DNA of 64,000 nucleotides. Source: the human T2T-CHM13v2.0 reference genome, Homo sapiens. Position 1 is the stretch's first letter, and each line of letters starts with the position of its first letter. Both the position numbers and the translations under genes were made by a program. The notes under the pieces are model-generated. The model was not told where the DNA came from. It did no database searches and saw nothing but the letters and a program-made list of their open reading frames with translations. The stretch is from NCBI RefSeq assembly GCF_009914755.1, contig NC_060933.1. One strand, written 5' to 3'. Positions 11,001-57,984 of this stretch are shown here, in pieces.

Positions 11001-11523
11001 TTTCTCTAGTTGAGGAACTTTGGATGATATTGAATATTTTATCTCAATTGATATAAGAGAATGAAGTTAGAATGTGAATATTGCAGCTATTTTATAATCA
11101 AGGGTTCAGATTTGGGTTCTCCCAATTACCAGCTCTGTGACCTTGAACCCTCTGTGACCCGTCTGTACAAGGGAGTACTATTTAGAGGTGCCTGCATTCT
11201 ATGTTGTTTAGAGATGGCAGTGAGATAATGAAAAAAGCAGTGCTTGATATATATTTCTTAAGTTCCCCATAAATATTAAATGTTATTATTTATATATAAC
11301 ATTTAGGGAAAGAAAAACACCACATAATGTAAGTTTAAAAAATTTTCAAAGGAAGCAAATTTACACTGCAGTCAAGATTTTATTCAGATTGTTTATGCAA
11401 GCTCTTATTCTAAGAACTTTTCTCTATTAGATTAATGCTAATTGAACCATTAATTATCTTGAAACTATAAATAACATTTAAAAAATTCTTAAAAGTATAA
11501 TCCTTTAATGTTAAGGCCATTTG

Positions 11524-11525
<2 letters not shown>

Positions 11526-11585
<60 letters not shown>
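11526..11585. repeat. Perfect (AC)30 microsatellite
   Basis: 60 nt of uninterrupted AC. Confidence 0.98.
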
Positions 11586-11588
<3 letters not shown>

Positions 11589-11725
11589 CCTTGCTGCATT
11601 CTTCCTGTCAGCAAATTTGGAGATTAATAGTTTTAACTAGGGCGCTTGTGTGCCGTATACATCTGCTGCTGTTTCTTCAGTTTGGCAATGCAGATAGCCG
11701 TTTGCCGGGTAAATGGTTTTGGTTA

Positions 11726-12182
<457 letters not shown>

Positions 12183-34194: not shown

Positions 34195-34292
34195 ATGGCG
34201 ACGGTGCCCGTGTACTGCGTCTGCCGGCTCCCCTACGACGTTACCCGCTTCATGATCGAGTGCGACGCCTGCAAGGACTGGTTCCACGGCAG
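34195..34292 (+). CDS. PHF2: PHF2 exon 1 coding part: N-terminal half of the PHD finger of the JmjC histone demethylase PHF2/KDM7C
   Basis: Kozak caacATGG. Translates [32 protein letters not shown]. Donor AG|gtgagc, phase 2. Exon 2 was not found in the window. Confidence 0.96.
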
Positions 34293-45085: not shown

Positions 45086-46073
45086 AGGGGTGGGAGGGCT
45101 GGACTGGAGGGTGTCTAACCCTACCACCCTGCTTGCCAGGCACTGCTTCTGCCCGAGCTCCCCCAGTGCCAGTTGGAGGGTGGAAGCACTAGCTGCTATT
45201 TGGTCTGGAGGTTCTCATGGGACAGTGTTGTTATGTGACTCTCATGATCCCAGCCTGTGTCTGTGTAGCCAGCCCTCTGGTCCACCTAGTGGCCAACTGT
45301 CCCTGGAGCTGCCCGTTGGCCTCACTGACCGTCCGTTCTCCAGCAGCATGGGCCCCCTGTCTGCTGGGTAGCCCTTGACCCTGCCATTGGCCGTCTGTGC
45401 CACCTGCCCACTGTGAAGGCATGTGACTTGGATCCTGGTGAAGGAGGTGGCTGTGTGGCGGGGTGGGCAGGTAAAGAAGCAGCACAGGGTCACCTCCCTG
45501 GAGGCCCCCATGACAGTGAGCTGGGTGCCTGGACTGTCGTGTGTCTGTGGGTCTGGGCGGCCACTGCACATCTCTCCCTGTCTCTGAGCAGCAGCTGGGG
45601 GCAGAACCACAGCTCTGCGGACCTGTTTATCTCAGTGCTTGACCAGATGCTCTGGGGGCAGGGCCTGTGTCCTGCACTGTGTGGCCCTAGGCAGGCAGGT
45701 CACTTCCTGTCGCAGGTGTACATCTGGATAAAGATGGTTCTGTCTTTGTGCCTGGTGGCGTTGTGTTGGGGACCATGGGACTGCGGGATAGAGGGGAGCA
45801 GCTCCAGGTGAGCTCTGGAGTCAGCTAGGGTGAGAGGTCCGTTCTAGCCTGGGGGCTGTGAGAAATGATTCCTCAGGCCAGACACAGCCCTTCTTAAAGT
45901 TAAGCCAGCAACGAGAATAACTCTCTTTGGAGGTCAGAGGGCATAGACCTGGAGGGAGCCTGTACCTGAGAGGCCCGAGTCTGTGGGACTCAGAGGATGA
46001 GCCCAGCCTTACTGAAGCTGCCCTCCCCACTCCCCTGCCATGCACTCCCTGCCCCCCAGAAAAACACTTTATG

Positions 46074-46551
<478 letters not shown>

Positions 46552-47000: not shown

Positions 47001-50000
47001 AGAAATGACTAACCTGTTGAATGTATTGTGTCTTTATCACTTGGAAATTAAACTCAGTGACCCACCTGTCTTTTCTTATATTTATTTATTTTGATAAGGC
47101 ATCAACTACATTTATTCATTTGAAATTGTTTGATTGAATTTATTTTGCAAACAGAACATTAGCACATGGTAAGAAAAATTTTAAAAAGAGTGAGAATTCG
47201 AAAGAAATGCAGTGGAATGCGTGCCTCTCCCCTGTCTCCCCGTTCTTCTCTCTGGAGCGGACTCCCAGCTCCAGTGATGTCTCATGTTTCCACAGCCACC
47301 CCCTTTCCCTCTCTCCACACAAACAGCAGTGCGCTGTGAATGTGATTCTGCAGTGACCCTGGGTCGTCACTCTTGACTGCTGGGGCTCCAGCAAACATGC
47401 TCCTCCTGCACTTCCTGCTTCCCCTGGTTGGCATGTAGCTCATTTCTCATCCGAGGCCACTGCGGTGTTGCTCCCTGGCTATCCTGGTCTGTATGTTTTT
47501 GTGCATGTATGCATGTATATCTGCTGGATATATTCAAATAAGTAAAGTTGCTGGGCTGAAGGATATAGCATTTCGGATTTTAAAATCGTCAGATTGGTTG
47601 TACTGATTTCTCTACACACTGGGCAACACATTTTCTGAGCCTTTGATCTTTGTCAATTCAACCAGAAAGGTGAAAAAGAATACCTCACTATGGTTTAATG
47701 TGCAGTTATCTAATTATTGAGTTCACTCACTTTTAAATCCTTTCCTCCCTAGAGTTGTAGAGTTGTGTCAGTAGCCCTGGTGCTTTCTAATGAAGACAGA
47801 AAAGCAGGTTTTCCCTGAGAAGTAGATATGAGAAGGGCGCCCCACTTTGATGGGCTGGGAACAGGCCCTTCCACTCTCTCCCACTCCTGCCCCAGAGCTG
47901 GTGGAGCCCCACAGAACTCCAGGGCAGGTGCTTCCTGGATGCTCAGTCCACAGAGGTGGAAAGCTCATCTGTTTCCTAAATACCCCTCTTTGTTTGACTC
48001 TTGTGGTGAGGCCAAGCCTCATTTGCTTTATTTTCCCCATAAACTTTTAATTTTAGAATTGTTTTAGATTTACAGAAAAGTTGTAAACATGGTACCAAGC
48101 ATCTCCACATACCCCAGCCAGTGTTCCTGAATGTGCACATCTTACATCTCCGTGGCAGGAGCCAGTGTCCATTCCCACCAAGGAGGCTGCAGGCTTGCTG
48201 GGGCCACAGTCCTCCCTGCAGCATCCTTCCCCTGAAGGGACCACCCCGGAGGCCATGGGCTGGTCCTCACGTCTCCTCAGCCCCTCTGGTTGTGGTGGTG
48301 TTTTCTGACTCCCCTTTGTCCTATGGCCCTGGCACACATGAGCAGCACTGCTGAGATTTGAATATCCCTTTATGATTTGTGTTCCTTTGAGGGGCCGCTT
48401 CTCCCCAGATGCCTTCACACACCTCTGGGTGGCTCCCCAACTTGAGTGTGGACATCCCAACAGCTCCGGGGCCATACTTGGCCTGGTTAGGTGGCAGACT
48501 GCTGTGACCCTCCGAGGGATCCAACATCACTCAGCAGACATGTGGTGGGTGAGGCCCTGTCATGGGGGCCAGCAGCCGTGCCTCCTGTGACCCATGCTCA
48601 CTCACAGTCTGCTGGGACTCAAGGTCCCAGCACCCCTCTCCCCACTGACATTTGTCTGGCCCTGACCGTGTCTGTCATAACCATTTATGGCCACAGATGC
48701 TTTTTCCTGATCATAGTTTCTTCTAGATGCCAAATGTGTATTATTTTATTAGATTTTAAACTACTCTTTGGAAAGGAAGATGTAATGAAATTAGTCTTCT
48801 GAACTCGTCTCTGTTAAAAGCCAAGTCTAGTAGAACAGTTTGGGATTGGGCTAGGCACCCATTCAGGAGCAGGCTGTACCGTGGCCTTGCTGCACGGGCA
48901 CCTGCCTCTGCATACCATGTGAGTAGGACGTGTGGACTGGGGGCGTCTCAGGGAGCAAGCCTCTTTTCACAAGCGGGAAACTGAAGCTGCACAGTGAGTT
49001 AGGGGCAGGGTGGGGACCAGAGTCCCTGCTTCCTCCCTTGACCTATTCTTTCCCTTACACTGAATTTTTTTCTCTGAATGAAATCACTGTAACAGAATTC
49101 AGCTTCGATCCTAGGAAGACTCCAGACCCTGGGCAGGGTCCATGTGGGTGGGGTGTCCTGGCCTACATGTCTGAGTGCAGGGATCCCCTCTGCCTCTGGC
49201 CTTGATGAGTGATAATCTACGTCACAGCTTCCCTAGCAAGGGAGTCAGAGGAAGAAGCCCGAGAGAGCATCTGTCAAGAGCCCAGTGCCCCACAGGGACC
49301 TCAACCCCAGATGCTTGGCCGTTGCTCGGGGACCTAGCTGTGTGGCCTGCTCCTAGTCTGGCTGCTCACCTGCAGAGGCCTTGAGGCTCTGGGCTGTGAA
49401 TACATACCTGCCCGAGGGCATTGCTGGGAGAGCCAGCTCCTTCCCCAGCTGCTCAGCGCCCACTCTGCTTCCTGCCTTCTCTGGTGTTTGTGCATTTCAC
49501 TCTTTACCCAGGGGTCATTGTAATTCTGCCTTAACCAGGGACACCTTGGTCCCCATTCTTGGAGGTCCCCAGTCCTGCCACCTTGTGATGGGTGGCAGGG
49601 CCAGGGGCTCTCAGTGTGCACCTCCCAGGAGCCCTTTTTCACTGGGGCCACACTTCTGTTCCTGGCCTGCTGGGATCTCAGGGTCTTTTTCTCAAACTCC
49701 TGGGGGATCCCTGGGAAGATAGTTGCCTCTGCAGGGGCTGCTGGTCCCCACTGTGGGAGCAGCGGGGTGATCCCAGGCAGACACAACACTCAGGGCGGGC
49801 CCATTCTTTACTCATTTGGGGAGCGCAGCATCATTGCCCCCATCACTGACCTGTTTAAAATTATCTGCATCCTTTGCCTAGTGATTTAAGCCATAGGTTC
49901 TTGGTGAAGTTCCCCTAGCAACACTTGGCAACCTGTAAGTTTTACCAATTGCTTGGTAAGAGAGTGTTTCATGGCAGTTCCTGGAATATCCCGCCTGCTG

Positions 50001-50553
50001 GGTGGAGCTTAGGGACAAGACTTAATGCTTGTGGTTGCTTGGTGAGTCTCTGTCGCTCAGTGTTCAGAGGCTCTTTCCCGAGCCAAAGCGTGCTGTTGTC
50101 CGTCCTTTCTTCTCTTGGTGCCAGTGACCTGAGGTGTAACTGGGGTATCTGAGCTGATGTCTGCCACCTGCAGTTCATCCGGTGAGCCAGGTTGTGTCCC
50201 TGTTTTATAGATGTGAACACTGATGTTCTGAGTGGCTCAGGAGCTGCAGACAGAGGGGGCCAAGCACCAGTACGTGGCCTTGCACCTTGGCTCACAGTCC
50301 ACCTGGCTGTTGTTAGAAGTATTGCTAGAGAGGCCCTAGCTGGTACCATCCCAGCCTCATAGCCCCAGACTCCCTCTCCAACTGGAGGACCACAGCTCTG
50401 TCCTAATCCAGGCCCCAGGCCCTGCAGCTGTACCCTCAAGAAGTCTAGGGCAGGGCACATCCAGAGGTCCTTGGAGGGAGGGCCTCAAGCTGCTTTTGCC
50501 CATCCAGGTTTCCACATCCTAATCTTTGCTTTTCTTGTCCTTTATGCCAAAAA

Positions 50554-50586
<33 letters not shown>

Positions 50587-52296
50587 AAAAAGGACTAAGA
50601 ACAGATGCTAAACTGTTCCAGCAGGACGGGACATGGCAGCACCCCCTTCCCTGGAGTTGTTGGGAGGGCCTCCTTTATTTCCATTTTCTATTCCAAAGCT
50701 GACCCCTGAGGGCTGCACCCCCTGGACCCAAGGCACCTGCCAGGTCATTAATTACCCTCCAGGGTATGGTGGGGGCTGAGGACAGGGCCCTCACCTCCCT
50801 TAGTCTAGAGTTCCTATTTCTGTTAATATGACCTCGGACTACATTTGCTCTCTGGTCAAATTTGTCTTGTGTCTCTGAGGCTTTTATCCAGATTGAAGGC
50901 TGTAATTCCCAGAACTTCCCAAAGGAGATATTTGCTCTACATCTGCATACAATTGGTTTCCTTAGAAACCACTGGAGTATGCTCCAAAACCTGCTTTGGA
51001 TTTTTTAAAGAGACCATGCCCTTTATCTGTAATATCTGTTAAAAATCCACCATAACAAATTTAAAAGTATATAAAGAATGAATATTTTAGATATTTATTT
51101 AATTTATCAAGAATTCTACACTGTTGAATGATGAAGTTGGGATGACTAGGCAAATGACAGTGTCCTCTTGTAAATCGGAAATTATGCAGTCATCAGCAGT
51201 GATGTTTACAGCAAGGCTTTAATGCTATGGGGATATCTTTATGATGATATTAAATGAAACACTACACACATAATGTGATGGCTGGTGTCAACCAATTAAA
51301 ATGGAAGACGGTCTAGGAGGGAATATGCCAACATGTTAAAGGTTAAGATTACGTTTTTCCTACCACTTTTGTACTTTTCTGTACATTCCAATTTGTTTTC
51401 CAAGAGCTTAATACTTTTATAATCAGATATAAAGTAAGCAAGGGAGTAAGACCATCAGGGTTTAGAGGTCATATTGCCTGGCCTCCTGTTTTACAGATTT
51501 TATGGACTGTGGGTTTTATAGACACTGGGGCTTGGGTAGCTCTCTCTGCTGCACAGCAATTGGCCCCAGGCCTCCCTGAAGGAGCTGTGGTGGGTGAGGA
51601 CACCTCACCCTTCCGGAGATATCTGCCCTTCCGGCACACCCCCTCTTCTCATGTGACCCCCCCCCTCCATTAATGCACAATGCACATTAGCTTAGTCTGC
51701 AGCCTATCTGCCTGTGTTGGCCAGAGCTACCCGAGGGCCCCTGTGGGTGGACAGGCCATTGACCATGAGCCTGCATGTAAGAGTTTTCAGTTGAAAAGGG
51801 CCCCGCCCAGTCAGCCCCTCCCCTGCTTTGGGAACATTCCAGGTCGGGGCGGCTCCTGTTCCCAGCCTCTTCAGGCTGATAGGTTCCTGACTCTTGGGTC
51901 AGGGATGGGCCTCCCATGGCACCAGGAGCAGCCACCACTTCCCAGAGCAGCAGGGCGTGTCACAGCTGTCATCGGGTGTACTTCCTCACCCCAAGGGTCT
52001 ACTGCAAGTGGGGATCCCAGCTTGTGGACACCTGCAGAGGACCCCACAGGCTGTGTGAACTGAGCTTCCTCTGGCACTGCCCTCCTGCTGATTGGCAGCT
52101 AAGCTCCCAGTCACTGCTCCCAGTGACAGCATGAGTGGGAGAGCACATTGGGACCTTGTGCCTAAAACATGTGGATTGCAAGGTACATGGGGGTTTGACA
52201 GAAGATAGGACCGCTGAGGAGAGCCCAGTGGACACCAGCCTTAGTCCACACCGGCTGAGGACACAGACCAGCCTAAGTTCCAGTCTGAAGATGTTA

Positions 52297-54703: not shown

Positions 54704-57509
54704 TAAAAAATCTTAAAAAGAGTGCCTGGCCATGGAATCTGGCTAGGCTGCAGGAGGGTCAGGCATTCAGGGTCTTTGGTCTTAGCTTCTCTTTGCTCCT
54801 GGGACTCCACACCCTTTAGCTCTGAGAAGTGGGAGGCTGAGCTGCAGAGACCATGCAGACCCTTGGGCCACTGGGCTTGGAGGGAGACTGTGCAGGTAGC
54901 CTCCCACCTGCTCTCTGTCAGGAAAGGAGAGCATGGTGGGCTGACCTGGTTGAGAGTGTAGGGCCCTGGAATCAGGCAGGCTGTGGGGCAGGAAGCGGGG
55001 TTGGGGGTGGCATTGGGGGCAGGCAGTGGGACATTGGTCCACAGCATGGCTATGGCTTGGCTGCCCGGCTTGAGTTTCAGGGTACAGGTATGGTTGAGTG
55101 TTTTACTGCCAGGGAGGAGCCTGGTGTTGTCCTGAGGTGAGGGAGGCTCATCCCCATGAGGCTGGAACCTACCCTTAGGCCTATGTGGCACTGCAGTCAC
55201 CTTGCTGCTGAGCACCTTTTCATGTGCCCGTTACATTTGTGGGTTCTTCCAGCCTCCCTTTTGAGAACAGTGTTGGGAAGTATCTTATAGCCAAGATTGG
55301 GGGATTTTTAAAGAACTCTCCCCTCTTCCTCTCAGATCTTCCTTTAATTTCCAAATCCCTCCTCCTCCCCAGGAGAGCATCTTGGCCTGACACCTCTACT
55401 CCTCTGGGCACTCTGGGGTCACTCTGATGGGCAGGGGTCCTCAGGTCAACATGGCACATTGGGGGCACCTCTGCCAGCTCAGCTGGCCATCAGTGGGCTT
55501 TATGGGCCGGCCGAGTGCATTTTGTTCTGGCTGAATGGTCCCCAGCTGGGGTGGAGGCTGGCAGGCCTGCCCCTGCAGCTCCTCAGGCCCCTTGCGGGGA
55601 GGCCTGCCATCTGCCTGGTGACACCCCAGGGATGGGGCTTGAGAAGTCCAGATGCCTCTAAGGAGAGACAGGAAAAGCCCAACTCACGCCAGGCATGCAG
55701 CACACTGTGGACGGGTTATTTTGACAAGTGAGCATCAGACTTAGCATTTAATCGCGATTCACTCCCAGCCAGTGAAGAGGGCCGTGCTGCGGGAACCCTG
55801 CCACTGCGCTTATCATCAGGACCTTGGTTCTCATCCTACCAGAGGATGGCAGTCCAGAGGGACATTGGGTGTTTGTCGGGCTGTCAGTCCATGGGGCCCC
55901 GGGGGGCTGGATGTACCACCCTTCCATAAGTGGCAGTTTTGAGAAAACAAAGCTGCCAACCCCCGTCAGAAGTGGGTTGTGTCCATGATAGTCCTGGCCT
56001 CTGAGCCACCCTTGTCCCATCACCTGCTAATAGCAGGCATGGTGCAGGCATTCTGTCAGCCCCCCACCCTCCTAAGAGGTTGTTCGTGAGTATCAGGGCG
56101 GGGGTTCACCCTGGCAGGCCCCACTGAGGAGGGGCATCCACGGGGCCTGGGGCTGGGATGAGGCTGTACTTTGACCATTTTTCCTCAGTCCCCATCCCAG
56201 GCTGCTGACAACAAGGCAGGCAGGGCAGGGCTCACATGGAGGCCCTTGTTTCTTTAAAATTTTCATTTTAATCACCTCCAGCTCATACAGGAATGCATTC
56301 CCCTAAGAAGCCCATCACCACATCCTGTAAGCCCCTCCCCGTAAGCCCCTCCCTTCCTGTTGGCCTCCACACCGTTATGGGCTTCCCACTGAGCCCCACC
56401 TTTTGACGTGGCTGGTATGTCCGTGTGCGCCCTTGGAAGCAGCATTGTTTTGTACTGTGCGTGCCTCTCAGACATGATGTCATTTATTGCACTGTTGCTC
56501 AGCAGCCTGTTTCTTGTGTCCAGCACAGGTCTCAGCGAGCTAGCCCCGTGTCCATCTCCATGGGTGTGGCTTTCATGGTATCCCAGGGACCCTCTGCCAG
56601 GGAGATGGGGAAGTACCAGGTGGCCTATTGCATGCACCTGCAGGGGCTCTCCAGGGTGGGTTCCGAAGAAGGCCTGCTGGACCTCGGGCTGCTGCTGTGT
56701 TTATTTTTACCGTCATCGTCTTCATCTTCAAGGAGCAATGATAGGCAGGGATTAGGTGGCACTGGTGTGGCTGGAGAGTGGCTGTGCCCACTGGGAGGTT
56801 GCCCTGCCACCACGTTGTGGGCTGCTCTCCCCTCTCAATTACCACAGGCCAGCTCCTGTTGCTCCAGCAAGCCCAAGAAGTGGGACCCCATTGGGATCCA
56901 GGCAGGGGGTTCCTGACAAATTCCAAATGACAGTGGCAGAGGTGGTGCGAGGAGATGGAGTGCGTGGAGGTTGGAAACAGTGATTTTAGAAAACAAGCCA
57001 AAGAGCATGCCACACTCACTGCCTGAATGCCAGTGTTTCAAAACCAGGAACAAATGCCGGTGAAGCAGCTCATGGGGGACTGGCCTCTCAGCCGAGATAT
57101 TCGGTGGTTACCTGTGAGTTTCACCTTTCCTGGACTTCACTAAACCATAACATGCCACCACGAGGGCTGATGTGGTCCAGCACCTCATTTCACATGTGAG
57201 CTGCTTGCAGCAAGGGGGATTCGGAGCACGAAAGGGATTTAGAGGCGCCGGTGGGGCCAGGTGTATACATGATGCCCAGCCACGCTCCCAGTTCCGTTGA
57301 TCTGAAACTCGTCTGACTGGGTGTCCTGTGGTTTTGTTTGCTGAGTCTGGCCACCCAGGTGGAGACCAGCCCTTTGTCTTTATCAGTGAAGACGTTGAGG
57401 CCAAGAAAGATAGGACGTCCACGGCCCTCATGCTGCCCAGGAACAGCCCCGGGGATTCCCCTGGCCCCCAGCTCCATGCAGCCTGCGTGGCCAGGTGAGA
57501 GGAAGTCCC

Positions 57510-57728
57510 TGCTGTGCTTGTGGGTGGTGTGTGGCATGTGTATGATGTTTGTGTCTGTGTGGTCTGTATGTGTGTAGTATGTGTGTGGTATGTGTGTAAT
57601 GTGTGTGAATGTGTGTGGTGTGTGCAGTTTGTGTGCTGTGTGTCTGTAGCATATGTGCATGTGTGTGTGGTATGTGGTGTGGTGGTGCATGGGGGGTGTG
57701 TGGATGTGTGTCTGTGTGTGTGTGTGTC
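57510..57728 (+). repeat. Degenerate (TG)n / GT-rich tract
   Basis: About 220 nt of tgtgtg/gtggtg repeats ending in (TG)6. Confidence 0.92.
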
Positions 57729-57984
57729 ACCCTGACAGTCTGCTGGAGGCCCTGGTCCTAAGTGTTAGGCACCTCACATTTCTTCCAAGGGGAAGAGGCA
57801 GCTCCTGGAGGGCAGGGCACTCAGTGTCCAGAGCTGCGTCTTTGTGATCTCCCAGTCCGATGCCTGTCCTTATCTGTGGGGACCCACATTACCTTAGCCA
57901 CACTGCTTTGAGGGGGAAAGGCCCAACATGGGACGGTATTGCAGTGTGGGACAGCTTTGCAAGCTCTTGTAGCTTGGGACAGCT

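What the first reader, a model, noticed from the sequence alone, without database searches (positions are those of the whole stretch)
57387..57728. In-frame 108-nt cryptic exon in PHF2 intron 1, guarded by a long UG tract, that would split the PHD finger
Seen in sequence: a good acceptor (ccctttgtctttatcag|, ending 57386), 108 nt with GAA-rich enhancer-like words, a good donor (CAG|gtgaga, 57495), and ~220 nt of TG repeats starting ~15 nt later on the sense strand. PHF2 exon 1 ends in phase 2, and in that phase the segment has no stop codon. It would read S-EDVEAKKDRTSTALMLPRNSPGDSPGPQLHAACVA and rejoin exon 2 in frame (+36 aa). Established: TDP-43 binds UG repeats and represses adjacent cryptic exons, and PHD fingers need Cys4-His-Cys3 spacing. 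The insertion falls between His31 and the next Cys ligand. Inference: inclusion would give an NMD-escaping PHF2 that cannot read H3K4me3 but keeps its JmjC domain, plus a neo-peptide. I recall PHF2 in TDP-43 cryptic-splicing lists but cannot say whether this is the same event.
Basis: partly seen in the sequence, partly recalled or inferred. Interest (0 to 1): 0.8.

Follow-up and report, generated by a model that had tools for sequence, protein, structure and literature searches.

The report
Unused pseudoexon beside a UG tract

Summary
Every sequence statement checks out. A 108-nt segment (57387-57494) has an AG acceptor and a CAG|GTGAGA donor. It is stop-free in the phase left by PHF2 exon 1. 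A degenerate UG tract of about 210 nt starts 16-25 nt after the donor. Inclusion would insert 36 residues between Gly32 and Ser33, in the middle of the PHD finger.

The exon-like part is what chance gives. Twelve site pairs of equal or better score lie in the 53.7-kb intron, and three of them are in-frame and open. 27% of 108-nt intron segments are open in that phase. The acceptor is only moderate, with four AGs just upstream. Only the abutting UG tract is unusual.

The PHF2 event in TDP-43 lists is a different one. It is a cryptic last exon inside a 2.3-kb intron about 62 kb further downstream, outside the window. In TDP-43-depleted i3Neurons that event goes from 0.1% to 51%. All three PHF2 rows of that junction table belong to it, and none starts at exon 1. 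RefSeq annotates no exon at the candidate.

Best reading: an inert pseudoexon next to an old microsatellite (about 0.72). A real, uncatalogued UG-guarded cryptic exon remains possible (about 0.12). Junction databases could not be queried.

The parts
34195..34292 (+). PHF2 exon 1 coding part. It encodes Met1-Gly32 plus the first two bases (AG) of codon 33, which is the N-terminal half of the PHD finger.
   Evidence: translation. Pfam PF00628, residues 8-31 match profile positions 1-24 of 47, E 1.5e-5, 25.4 bits against a cut-off of 24; 100% identity to PDB 3kqi, 7m10 and 8f8y over residues 1-32.
57367..57386 (+). Candidate 3' splice site: pyrimidine tract ccctttgtctttat followed by cag. Its strength is moderate. 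AG dinucleotides lie 17, 22, 28 and 41 nt upstream, and the only YTNAY branch-point match lies 71 nt upstream.
   Evidence: The matrix score is 6.84 bits, and 226 of 4549 AGs in the window score at least as high. Only 1 of 8 annotated acceptors in the window scores lower. It is the best AG within 240 nt upstream of the donor.
57387..57494 (+). The 108-nt pseudoexon. It is stop-free in upstream phases 1 and 2, is 65% G+C, and would encode SEDVEAKKDRTSTALMLPRNSPGDSPGPQLHAACVA.
   Evidence: No Pfam match. No other copy in the window. One paralogous copy on chromosome 13 at 89% identity.
57495..57500 (+). Candidate 5' splice site CAG|gtgaga, which is strong.
   Evidence: 11.03 bits, and 9 of 3700 GTs in the window score at least as high. 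The sequence is identical in the chromosome 13 paralogue.
57510..57728 (+). Degenerate UG-rich tract, a decayed (TG)n microsatellite. By motif it is a likely binding region for TDP-43 or other GU-binding proteins.
   Evidence: Tandem Repeats Finder, 57519-57727, period 2, 62% matches. (85% T+G, 78 UGUG/GUGU words, 14 pure runs of 6-15 nt, strongest tract on the + strand of the window). Binding itself was not tested.
57656..57691 (+). Two TGCATG words (57656 and 57686), with one more GCATG at 57534, inside the tract. These are RBFOX-type motifs downstream of the donor.
   Evidence: 37 TGCATG in the 64 kb, or 0.58 per kb. They may simply be a by-product of CA interruptions in a TG repeat.

Best explanation
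The segment 57387-57494 is an ordinary intronic pseudoexon. It is a chance pairing of a strong GT donor with a moderate AG acceptor in a long (53.7 kb), fairly G+C-rich intron, and it happens to lie directly upstream of an old, decayed (TG)n microsatellite. It is not spliced into PHF2 mRNA at an appreciable level, whether or not TDP-43 is present. The UG tract very probably binds TDP-43 or other GU-binding proteins, as most long sense-strand UG tracts in expressed pre-mRNAs do. That binding is not what keeps the segment out. The weak 3' splice-site region is enough: there is no consensus branch point within 70 nt, four competing AGs lie 17-41 nt upstream, and exonic enhancer content is poor.

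Shown: the anatomy, the chance frequencies, the different location of the published PHF2 event, and the absence of an exon-1 splicing unit from one TDP-43-knockdown junction table.

Inferred: that the segment is not used in other cell types, and that the acceptor is limiting.
For: 1. Pairs scoring at least as well are common. There are 4 in the 29.7-kb window part of the intron, 4 on its antisense strand, and 2.7 on average in 20 Markov-random versions. There are 12 in the full intron, and 3 of those 12 are in-frame and open.
2. The open frame is not informative. 27% of 108-nt intron segments and 41% of shuffles are open in that phase.
3. The acceptor scores 6.84 bits, against 6.57-11.31 for the 8 annotated acceptors of the window, and only 1 of those 8 is lower. 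AGs lie at -17, -22, -28 and -41, and the only YTNAY match is at -71.
4. There are only 3 GAA words in the segment.
5. RefSeq (hub table) lists no PHF2 exon in the window other than exon 1, across 5 transcripts.
6. Brown 2022 (PMC8891020), supplement file 1, was not cut when stored. It has 3 whole-word PHF2 rows, all from the splicing unit whose source exon is 93660192-93660560. In the same experiment the PHF2 cryptic last exon rose from PSI 0.001 to 0.507 and PHF2 expression was high (baseMean 6520). The calling threshold was a PSI change of 10%.
7. In the tables I could read, PHF2 is absent from Ma 2022 (12 of 14 files searched), Humphrey 2017 (2 files) and Sinha 2025 (1 file).
8. No number beginning 93599 occurs in the 6 supplementary files of PMC12586162. 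That is the prefix of the candidate's estimated hg38 position.
9. The chromosome 13 paralogue shows no extra conservation of the segment: 96 of 108 positions identical, against 128 of 143 aligned columns in the upstream flank.
Against: The anatomy is what TDP-43-repressed cryptic exons look like.
- The donor ranks among the top 9 of 3700 GTs.
- The summed site score of 17.87 lies within the range of the 7 annotated internal exons of the window, 11.6-22.8.
- The tract is the densest on the + strand of the window, and I estimate the adjacency at about 1% by chance.
- Donor, an AG acceptor and the UG tract are all retained in an 87-89% identical paralogue. The arrangement is therefore old.

The negative evidence is limited. 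It rests on one neuron type at a 10% PSI-change threshold. The largest compendium (3,905 cryptic events, PMC12667841 Supplementary Table 2) and the Seddighi tables could not be read. No junction database, CLIP data or deep-learning splice predictor was available. The scoring matrices are recalled approximations.
Confidence: 0.72

Rival explanations
1. The segment is a true cryptic exon, kept silent by TDP-43 bound to the UG tract 16-230 nt downstream of its donor, where it blocks U1 snRNP or exon definition. On TDP-43 loss it is included and gives an in-frame PHF2 that escapes nonsense-mediated decay, with 36 extra residues inside the PHD finger.
For: The donor is strong. The tract is dense, about 210 nt long and multivalent, directly after the donor. 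The published position rule fits (PMC13343711). A preprint reports that responsive cryptic exons have stronger splice sites and denser, longer UG-rich regions (PMC12667841, passages seen). The frame and PHD logic were verified. PHF2 pre-mRNA is already a proven TDP-43 target at another site.
Against: No PHF2 exon-1 splicing unit appears among differentially spliced junctions in TDP-43-depleted i3Neurons, although the PHF2 last-exon event reached PSI 0.51 in the same samples. The published PHF2 event lies elsewhere and is described as leading to a premature stop, not as in-frame (PMC12143990). The acceptor is moderate, with four AGs between it and the only consensus branch point. There is no annotation. 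Eleven other pairs of equal or better score lie in the same intron.
Confidence: 0.12
2. The segment is a rare or tissue-restricted alternative exon, or a stepping stone in the stepwise removal of the 53.7-kb intron, and its use does not depend on TDP-43. For example, RBFOX proteins bound to the UGCAUG words downstream of the donor could promote it in neurons or muscle, and other GU-binders (CELF, RBM24) could modulate it.
For: Two TGCATG and one further GCATG lie within 200 nt downstream of the donor, against 0.58 TGCATG per kb in the window. The donor is strong. The intron is very long.
Against: There is no RefSeq exon here (hub table). The segment is not more conserved than its flank between paralogues. 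GCATG words arise easily from CA interruptions of a TG repeat. There is no juxtaposed AG|GT recursive-site motif. No expression data could be consulted.
Confidence: 0.08
3. The UG tract matters and the pseudoexon does not. The tract would be a TDP-43 docking region, a Z-DNA-prone element or a polymorphic repeat that affects PHF2 intron-1 processing or transcription. The neighbouring splice-like sites would then be irrelevant.
For: Intron 1 holds a second, larger degenerate UG tract of 813 nt at L005 2173-2985, with no donor of 7 bits or more in the 150 nt before position 76100, which lies just upstream of the tract start at 76173. Such tracts therefore occur here without abutting exons. The tract is retained in the chromosome 13 paralogue with many indels, as expected for a microsatellite.
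Against: Nothing tested here points to a function for the tract. A repeat-splicing association study had no PHF2 entry in the 10 of 11 supplementary files searched (PMC10078293).
Confidence: 0.06

Closest known systems
The published TDP-43-dependent cryptic alternative last exon of PHF2 (junction hg38 chr9:93660560-93661348; Brown 2022 PMC8891020; Bryce-Smith 2025 PMC12586162)
   Same: Same gene and same pre-mRNA. It is an unannotated splice site next to a long repeat of TDP-43-type motifs.
   Different: It is a different place: extended-window 118608->119396, in a 2.3-kb intron after a 369-nt coding exon, about 62 kb downstream of the candidate. It is a last exon with polyadenylation signals (6 AATAAA), not a cassette. 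Its acceptor scores 13.5 bits against 6.84 for the candidate. Its repeat is about 1.4 kb of (GAATG/GGATG)n rather than UG. The reading frame stops after 4 codons. It has experimental support: PSI 0.001 to 0.507, and detection in 77 samples from tissues with expected TDP-43 pathology against 1 from tissues without. The candidate has none.
UNC13A cryptic exon (TDP-43 binding region in the intron next to the cryptic exon)
   Same: It is a cassette-type cryptic exon in a long intron, with the UG-rich repressor region beside the exon. The position of the UNC13A region is recalled from memory. The general rule comes from PMC13343711.
   Different: The UNC13A exon is out of frame and a target of nonsense-mediated decay (PMC12667841 passage), and it has been validated in cells and tissue. 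The candidate is in-frame and unvalidated.
HDGFL2 in-frame cryptic exon
   Same: It is an in-frame cryptic exon that escapes nonsense-mediated decay and gives a new peptide usable as a biomarker (PMC13343711 and PMC12667841 passages).
   Different: HDGFL2 inclusion and its peptide have been measured in patient fluids. Nothing of the kind exists for this segment. The review puts in-frame events at about 3% of cryptic exons.
Generic intronic pseudoexons (decoy splice-site pairs that outnumber real exons; the concept is recalled from Sun and Chasin 2000 and was not read here)
   Same: The splice-site scores fall within the range of real exons. The segment has no annotation and no extra conservation. 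Many equivalents lie in the same intron.
   Different: This one abuts a major UG tract, which most pseudoexons do not.

Membership tests
TDP-43-repressed cryptic exon | Unannotated intronic segment flanked by usable 3' and 5' splice sites | tested here: inconclusive
   The segment is unannotated in RefSeq (hub table). The donor scores 11.03 bits and is strong. The acceptor scores 6.84 bits and is moderate, with upstream AGs and no nearby consensus branch point. The matrices are recalled. MaxEntScan and SpliceAI were not available.
TDP-43-repressed cryptic exon | UG-rich TDP-43 motif within or next to the exon | tested here: met
   There are 78 UGUG/GUGU words in 57510-57728, starting 16-25 nt after the donor. 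It is the strongest tract on the + strand of the window.
TDP-43-repressed cryptic exon | Inclusion below 5% in controls, rising by more than 10% on TDP-43 depletion (definition used in PMC8891020) | tested here: not met
   This was tested only through one published table. The 3 PHF2 rows in Brown 2022 supplement file 1 all belong to the splicing unit at 93660192-93660560, and none starts at exon 1. Other cell types and lower thresholds were not tested.
TDP-43-repressed cryptic exon | TDP-43 cross-linking (iCLIP or eCLIP) on the flanking tract | not testable with these tools
   No CLIP data are held.
Published PHF2 cryptic last exon | Junction hg38 chr9:93660560-93661348, inside a 2,347-nt annotated intron | tested here: not met
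   That junction maps to extended-window 118608->119396. The match rests on geometry: a 369-nt coding exon, a 788-nt step to the new acceptor, and 2,337 nt to the next exon. The candidate lies in intron 1 (53,718 nt) at 57387.
PHD finger (Pfam PF00628), for the claim that the insert splits it | Exon 1 ends inside the domain, between the His and the next Cys ligand | tested here: met
   Exon 1 residues 8-31 match profile positions 1-24 of 47. PDB chains 3kqi, 7m10 and 8f8y are identical over residues 1-32. Exon 2 starts with Ser33-Cys34. Loss of H3K4me3 reading was not tested.

The most novel reading that the evidence does not exclude
The segment is a real cryptic exon that no catalogue I could read lists. 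It would be guarded by TDP-43, or by another GU-binding protein, through the abutting 210-nt UG tract. It would be included only in certain cell types or at levels below the 10% threshold of the table I could read. Its product would be a stable, in-frame PHF2 with 36 extra residues between His31 and Cys34 of the PHD finger and an intact JmjC domain. That would be a reader-dead demethylase and a new peptide that could be tracked as a marker. PHF2 would then be hit twice by TDP-43 loss, at intron 1 and at the known cryptic last exon.
Probability: 0.1. Interest if true: 0.5.

Novelty: new member of a known kind. Interest (0 to 1): 0.2.

Why it matters
If the segment were truly TDP-43-repressed, it would join the small class of in-frame cryptic exons, which a review puts at about 3% of such events (PMC13343711). 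These are valued because their peptides escape decay and can serve as fluid biomarkers. It would also separate the chromatin-reading function of PHF2 from its catalytic function.

As things stand, the practical results are these:
- The half-remembered link between PHF2 and TDP-43 is now pinned to a different, well-supported event outside the window.
- The candidate is reduced to a testable but low-probability prediction, with exact junction coordinates.
- In this intron, splice-site pairs of equal score and open frames occur at chance frequency, so they carry little weight without junction data.

Tried and rejected
- MaxEntScan and SpliceAI are not on the script machine. I used position weight matrices recalled from memory, so the scores are approximate.
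- Earlier findings of the scan were not open.
- Seddighi 2024: not held by PubMed id or by PMC id.
- I did not ask for the supplements of the Brown 2025 preprint (PMC12667841), because preprint supplements are closed. Its Supplementary Table 2 (3,905 events) may bear directly on the claim.
- Only one small supplementary file of PMC12143990 is held, and it has no PHF2 entry. The coordinates of that paper's PHF2 event were therefore not seen. Its description as leading to a premature stop fits the last exon.
- O'Neill 2025 has no PHF2 in its main text.
- In one search I searched the coordinate prefixes 93599, 93600 and 9366 with whole-word matching. That cannot find longer numbers, so those zeros mean nothing. 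Only the PHF2 counts from that call are used.
- Is the segment part of a dispersed repeat? No. There is no other copy in the window, and the genome holds only one other copy, a segmental duplicate.
- Is the known event the same as the candidate? No.
- I did not fold the insert-bearing PHD finger. That protein is a join of three exons, which the tools do not accept.
Full report
**1. Observation**

- The acceptor ...ccctttgtctttatcag ends at 57386.
- The segment 57387-57494 is 108 nt.
- The donor is CAG|gtgaga, with GT at 57495-57496.
- PHF2 exon 1 coding sequence (34195-34292, 98 nt) encodes [32 protein letters not shown] and ends with the two bases AG.
- In that phase the segment reads S-EDVEAKKDRTSTALMLPRNSPGDSPGPQLHAACVA without a stop.
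- Upstream phase 1 is also open. Phase 0 has three stops.

Tandem Repeats Finder reports a degenerate period-2 TG array at 57519-57727 with 62% matches. The stretch 57510-57728 is 85% T+G. It has 14 pure runs of 6-15 nt and 78 UGUG/GUGU words. It is the only major tract of this kind on the + strand of the window: its peak is 76 words per 200 nt, against a median of 2, a 99th percentile of 12, and 15 for the next best region.

**2. Consequence if included**

The window's own genome could be searched, so I fetched the rest of the gene and located exon 2.
- Exon 2 lies at extended-window 88011-88096.
- Its acceptor is tctatttcgtctcgtttcag|C.
- It reads [29 protein letters not shown].
- Intron 1 is therefore 53,718 nt, and the candidate lies 23.1 kb into it.
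- Codon 33 is AG+C (Ser), and Cys34 follows.

A 108-nt stop-free insert would add 36 residues between Gly32 and Ser33 and keep the frame.

Exon 1 residues 8-31 match Pfam PHD profile positions 1-24 of 47. Exon 1 is identical to residues 1-32 of the solved PHF2 PHD chains 3kqi, 7m10 and 8f8y.

Loss of H3K4me3 reading is a reasonable inference that was not tested. The new peptide itself ends in His-Ala-Ala-Cys, four residues before Cys34. I regard that as a curiosity.

**3. Is the exon-like part more than chance?**

I scored all GT and AG sites with simple position weight matrices. The matrices are recalled from memory, because MaxEntScan was not available.

| Measure | Result |
|---|---|
| Donor score | 11.03 bits; 9 of 3700 GTs in the window score at least as high |
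| Acceptor score | 6.84 bits; 226 of 4549 AGs score at least as high |
| Annotated acceptors that score lower | 1 of 8 |
| Equal-or-better pairs 40-300 nt apart, 29.7-kb window part, sense strand | 4 |
| Same, antisense strand of the same DNA | 4 |
| Same, mean of 20 Markov-random versions | 2.7 |
| Same, full intron 1 | 12, of which 3 are in-frame and open (45592-45807, 57387-57494, 78253-78405) |
| 108-nt intron segments open in the required phase | 27% |
| Shuffles of the segment that are open | 41% |

Upstream of the acceptor, AG dinucleotides lie at -17, -22, -28 and -41. The only YTNAY branch-point match is at -71. Real acceptors normally have no AG between branch point and splice site (established knowledge, recalled). 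I therefore infer that this acceptor is weaker than its matrix score suggests. Locally it is still the best AG within 240 nt of the donor.

The splice-site pair and the open frame are thus what chance gives. What is uncommon is that such a pair abuts a major UG tract. From the densities I estimate this post hoc at about 1% per tract. Across all sense-strand UG tracts in human introns, that still predicts many such coincidences.

**4. The known PHF2 event is a different one**

PHF2 does appear in TDP-43 lists (review PMC13343711, passages seen). The coordinates are in two supplements.

Brown 2022 (PMC8891020), file 1:
- The source exon is hg38 93660192-93660560.
- A novel acceptor at 93661348 goes from PSI 0.001 to 0.507.
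- The annotated junction 93660560-93662907 falls from 0.999 to 0.378.

Bryce-Smith 2025 (PMC12586162), file 2:
- It lists a cryptic alternative last exon at 93661348-93662683, called in 7 datasets.
- Its junction was detected in 77 samples from tissues with expected TDP-43 pathology, against 1 from tissues without.
- The main text ranks it eighth among disease-specific events.

The annotated intron there is 2,347 nt, so it cannot be intron 1.

I found the site in the fetched DNA by its geometry:
- a 369-nt open coding exon at extended-window 118240-118608;
- an acceptor 788 nt further on at 119396 (ttttgtgttctctttctcag|G, 13.5 bits);
- the next exon 2,337 nt after the donor.

The last exon consists of about 1.4 kb of (GAATG/GGATG)n repeats with 6 AATAAA signals. 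The frame stops after 4 codons. That fits PMC12143990, which describes the PHF2 event as leading to a premature stop.

This event is about 62 kb downstream of the candidate and outside the window. It also serves as an in-gene positive control. The proven site has a far stronger acceptor and a far longer motif array than the candidate.

**5. Direct evidence on the candidate**

- RefSeq lists no PHF2 exon in the window other than exon 1 (hub table).
- Brown 2022 file 1 was not cut when stored. It has exactly 3 whole-word PHF2 rows, all from the one splicing unit above.
- That study used MAJIQ with a 10% PSI-change threshold. PHF2 expression was high in those cells (baseMean 6520).
- So in TDP-43-depleted i3Neurons, no differential splicing from exon 1 was reported.
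- PHF2 is absent from the readable supplements of Ma 2022 (12 of 14 files), Humphrey 2017 (2 files), Sinha 2025 (1 file) and a repeat-splicing association study (10 of 11 files).
- No number beginning 93599 occurs in the 6 supplementary files of PMC12586162. That is the prefix of the candidate's estimated hg38 position.

Limits of this evidence:
- It rests on one cell type and one threshold.
- The compendium of 3,905 events (PMC12667841, passages seen) and the Seddighi tables could not be read.
- No junction database or CLIP data were available.

**6. Paralogue**

The segment has one other copy in the genome, at G000:C13:18284324-18284587 on the minus strand, 89% identical. It is part of a segmental duplicate of PHF2.
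- The duplicate runs from about window 55136 onwards at 86-88% identity.
- It includes the exon 2 region at 92% identity.
- It does not include window 49000-51000.

In the copy, the donor CAG|GTGAGAGGA is identical. An AG acceptor is present but shifted by one base. Three bases are deleted. The UG tract is kept, with many indels.

Identity is 96 of 108 positions in the segment, against 128 of 143 aligned columns in the upstream flank. There is no sign of extra constraint. The arrangement is old, but it has drifted like the neutral sequence around it.

**7. Mechanism and verdict**

The most likely reading (about 0.72) is an inert pseudoexon. A strong donor is paired by chance with a moderate acceptor that is poorly served by a branch point, next to a decayed microsatellite that probably binds TDP-43 without needing to repress anything.

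It cannot be excluded. I give it about 0.12. A TDP-43-independent rare exon, possibly helped by the two UGCAUG words downstream of the donor, gets about 0.08.

No full-text search returned a description of an exon at this place. The searches were PHF2 with 'cryptic exon' and TDP-43 (7 papers) and PHF2 with TDP-43 and 'cryptic' (12 papers).

If real, the segment would be a new member of a well-known class. Interest as it stands is low.

Noticed in passing
L009:4240-6945 (extended-window 118240-120945; outside the window): The published TDP-43-dependent cryptic last exon of PHF2 starts at a very strong acceptor (L009:5396, 13.5 bits). It consists of about 1.4 kb of (GAATG/GGATG)n repeats with 6 AATAAA signals. 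The reading frame stops after 4 codons. Its motif array is of the GAAUG type rather than pure UG.
   Followed up: yes
L005:2173-2985 (extended-window 76173-76985, PHF2 intron 1, outside the window): This is a second, larger degenerate UG tract (813 nt, period 2, 62% matches) in the same intron. A pseudoexon pair at 75538-75746 (acceptor 8.0 bits, donor 12.2 bits) lies about 430 nt upstream of it. Acceptors of 6.9-11.7 bits lie within about 200 nt downstream of it.
   Followed up: partly
L012 (G000:C13:18279501-18289500) and G000:C13:18257180-18257681: A segmental duplicate of PHF2 lies on chromosome 13. It begins inside intron 1 at about window 55136, possibly from about 54108 through an Alu, and runs past exon 2. 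Identity is 86-92%. It lacks exon 1. It is probably one of the PHF2P pseudogenes; that name is recalled and the location was not checked. Window 57703-57852 is missing from the copy.
   Followed up: partly
window 45592-45807: This is another in-frame, stop-free pseudoexon (216 nt, acceptor 7.1 bits, donor CAG|gtgagc 11.4 bits) in PHF2 intron 1. It overlaps the RefSeq enhancer element 45673-46173. It scores at least as well as the candidate and has no UG tract beside it.
   Followed up: no
window 11340-11767: A CA-rich tract lies on the + strand inside FAM120A, with up to 57 CACA/ACAC words per 200 nt. It would read as UG-rich only on an antisense transcript. On the sense pre-mRNA it is a CA repeat, the motif type linked to hnRNP L in PMC5959245 (search listing only).
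   Followed up: no
window 57477-57494 with L006:4011-4016: The predicted new peptide ends ...LHAACVA and is followed by the native SC. The insert would therefore bring its own His-x2-Cys motif four residues before the native Cys34. This is probably chance.
   Followed up: no
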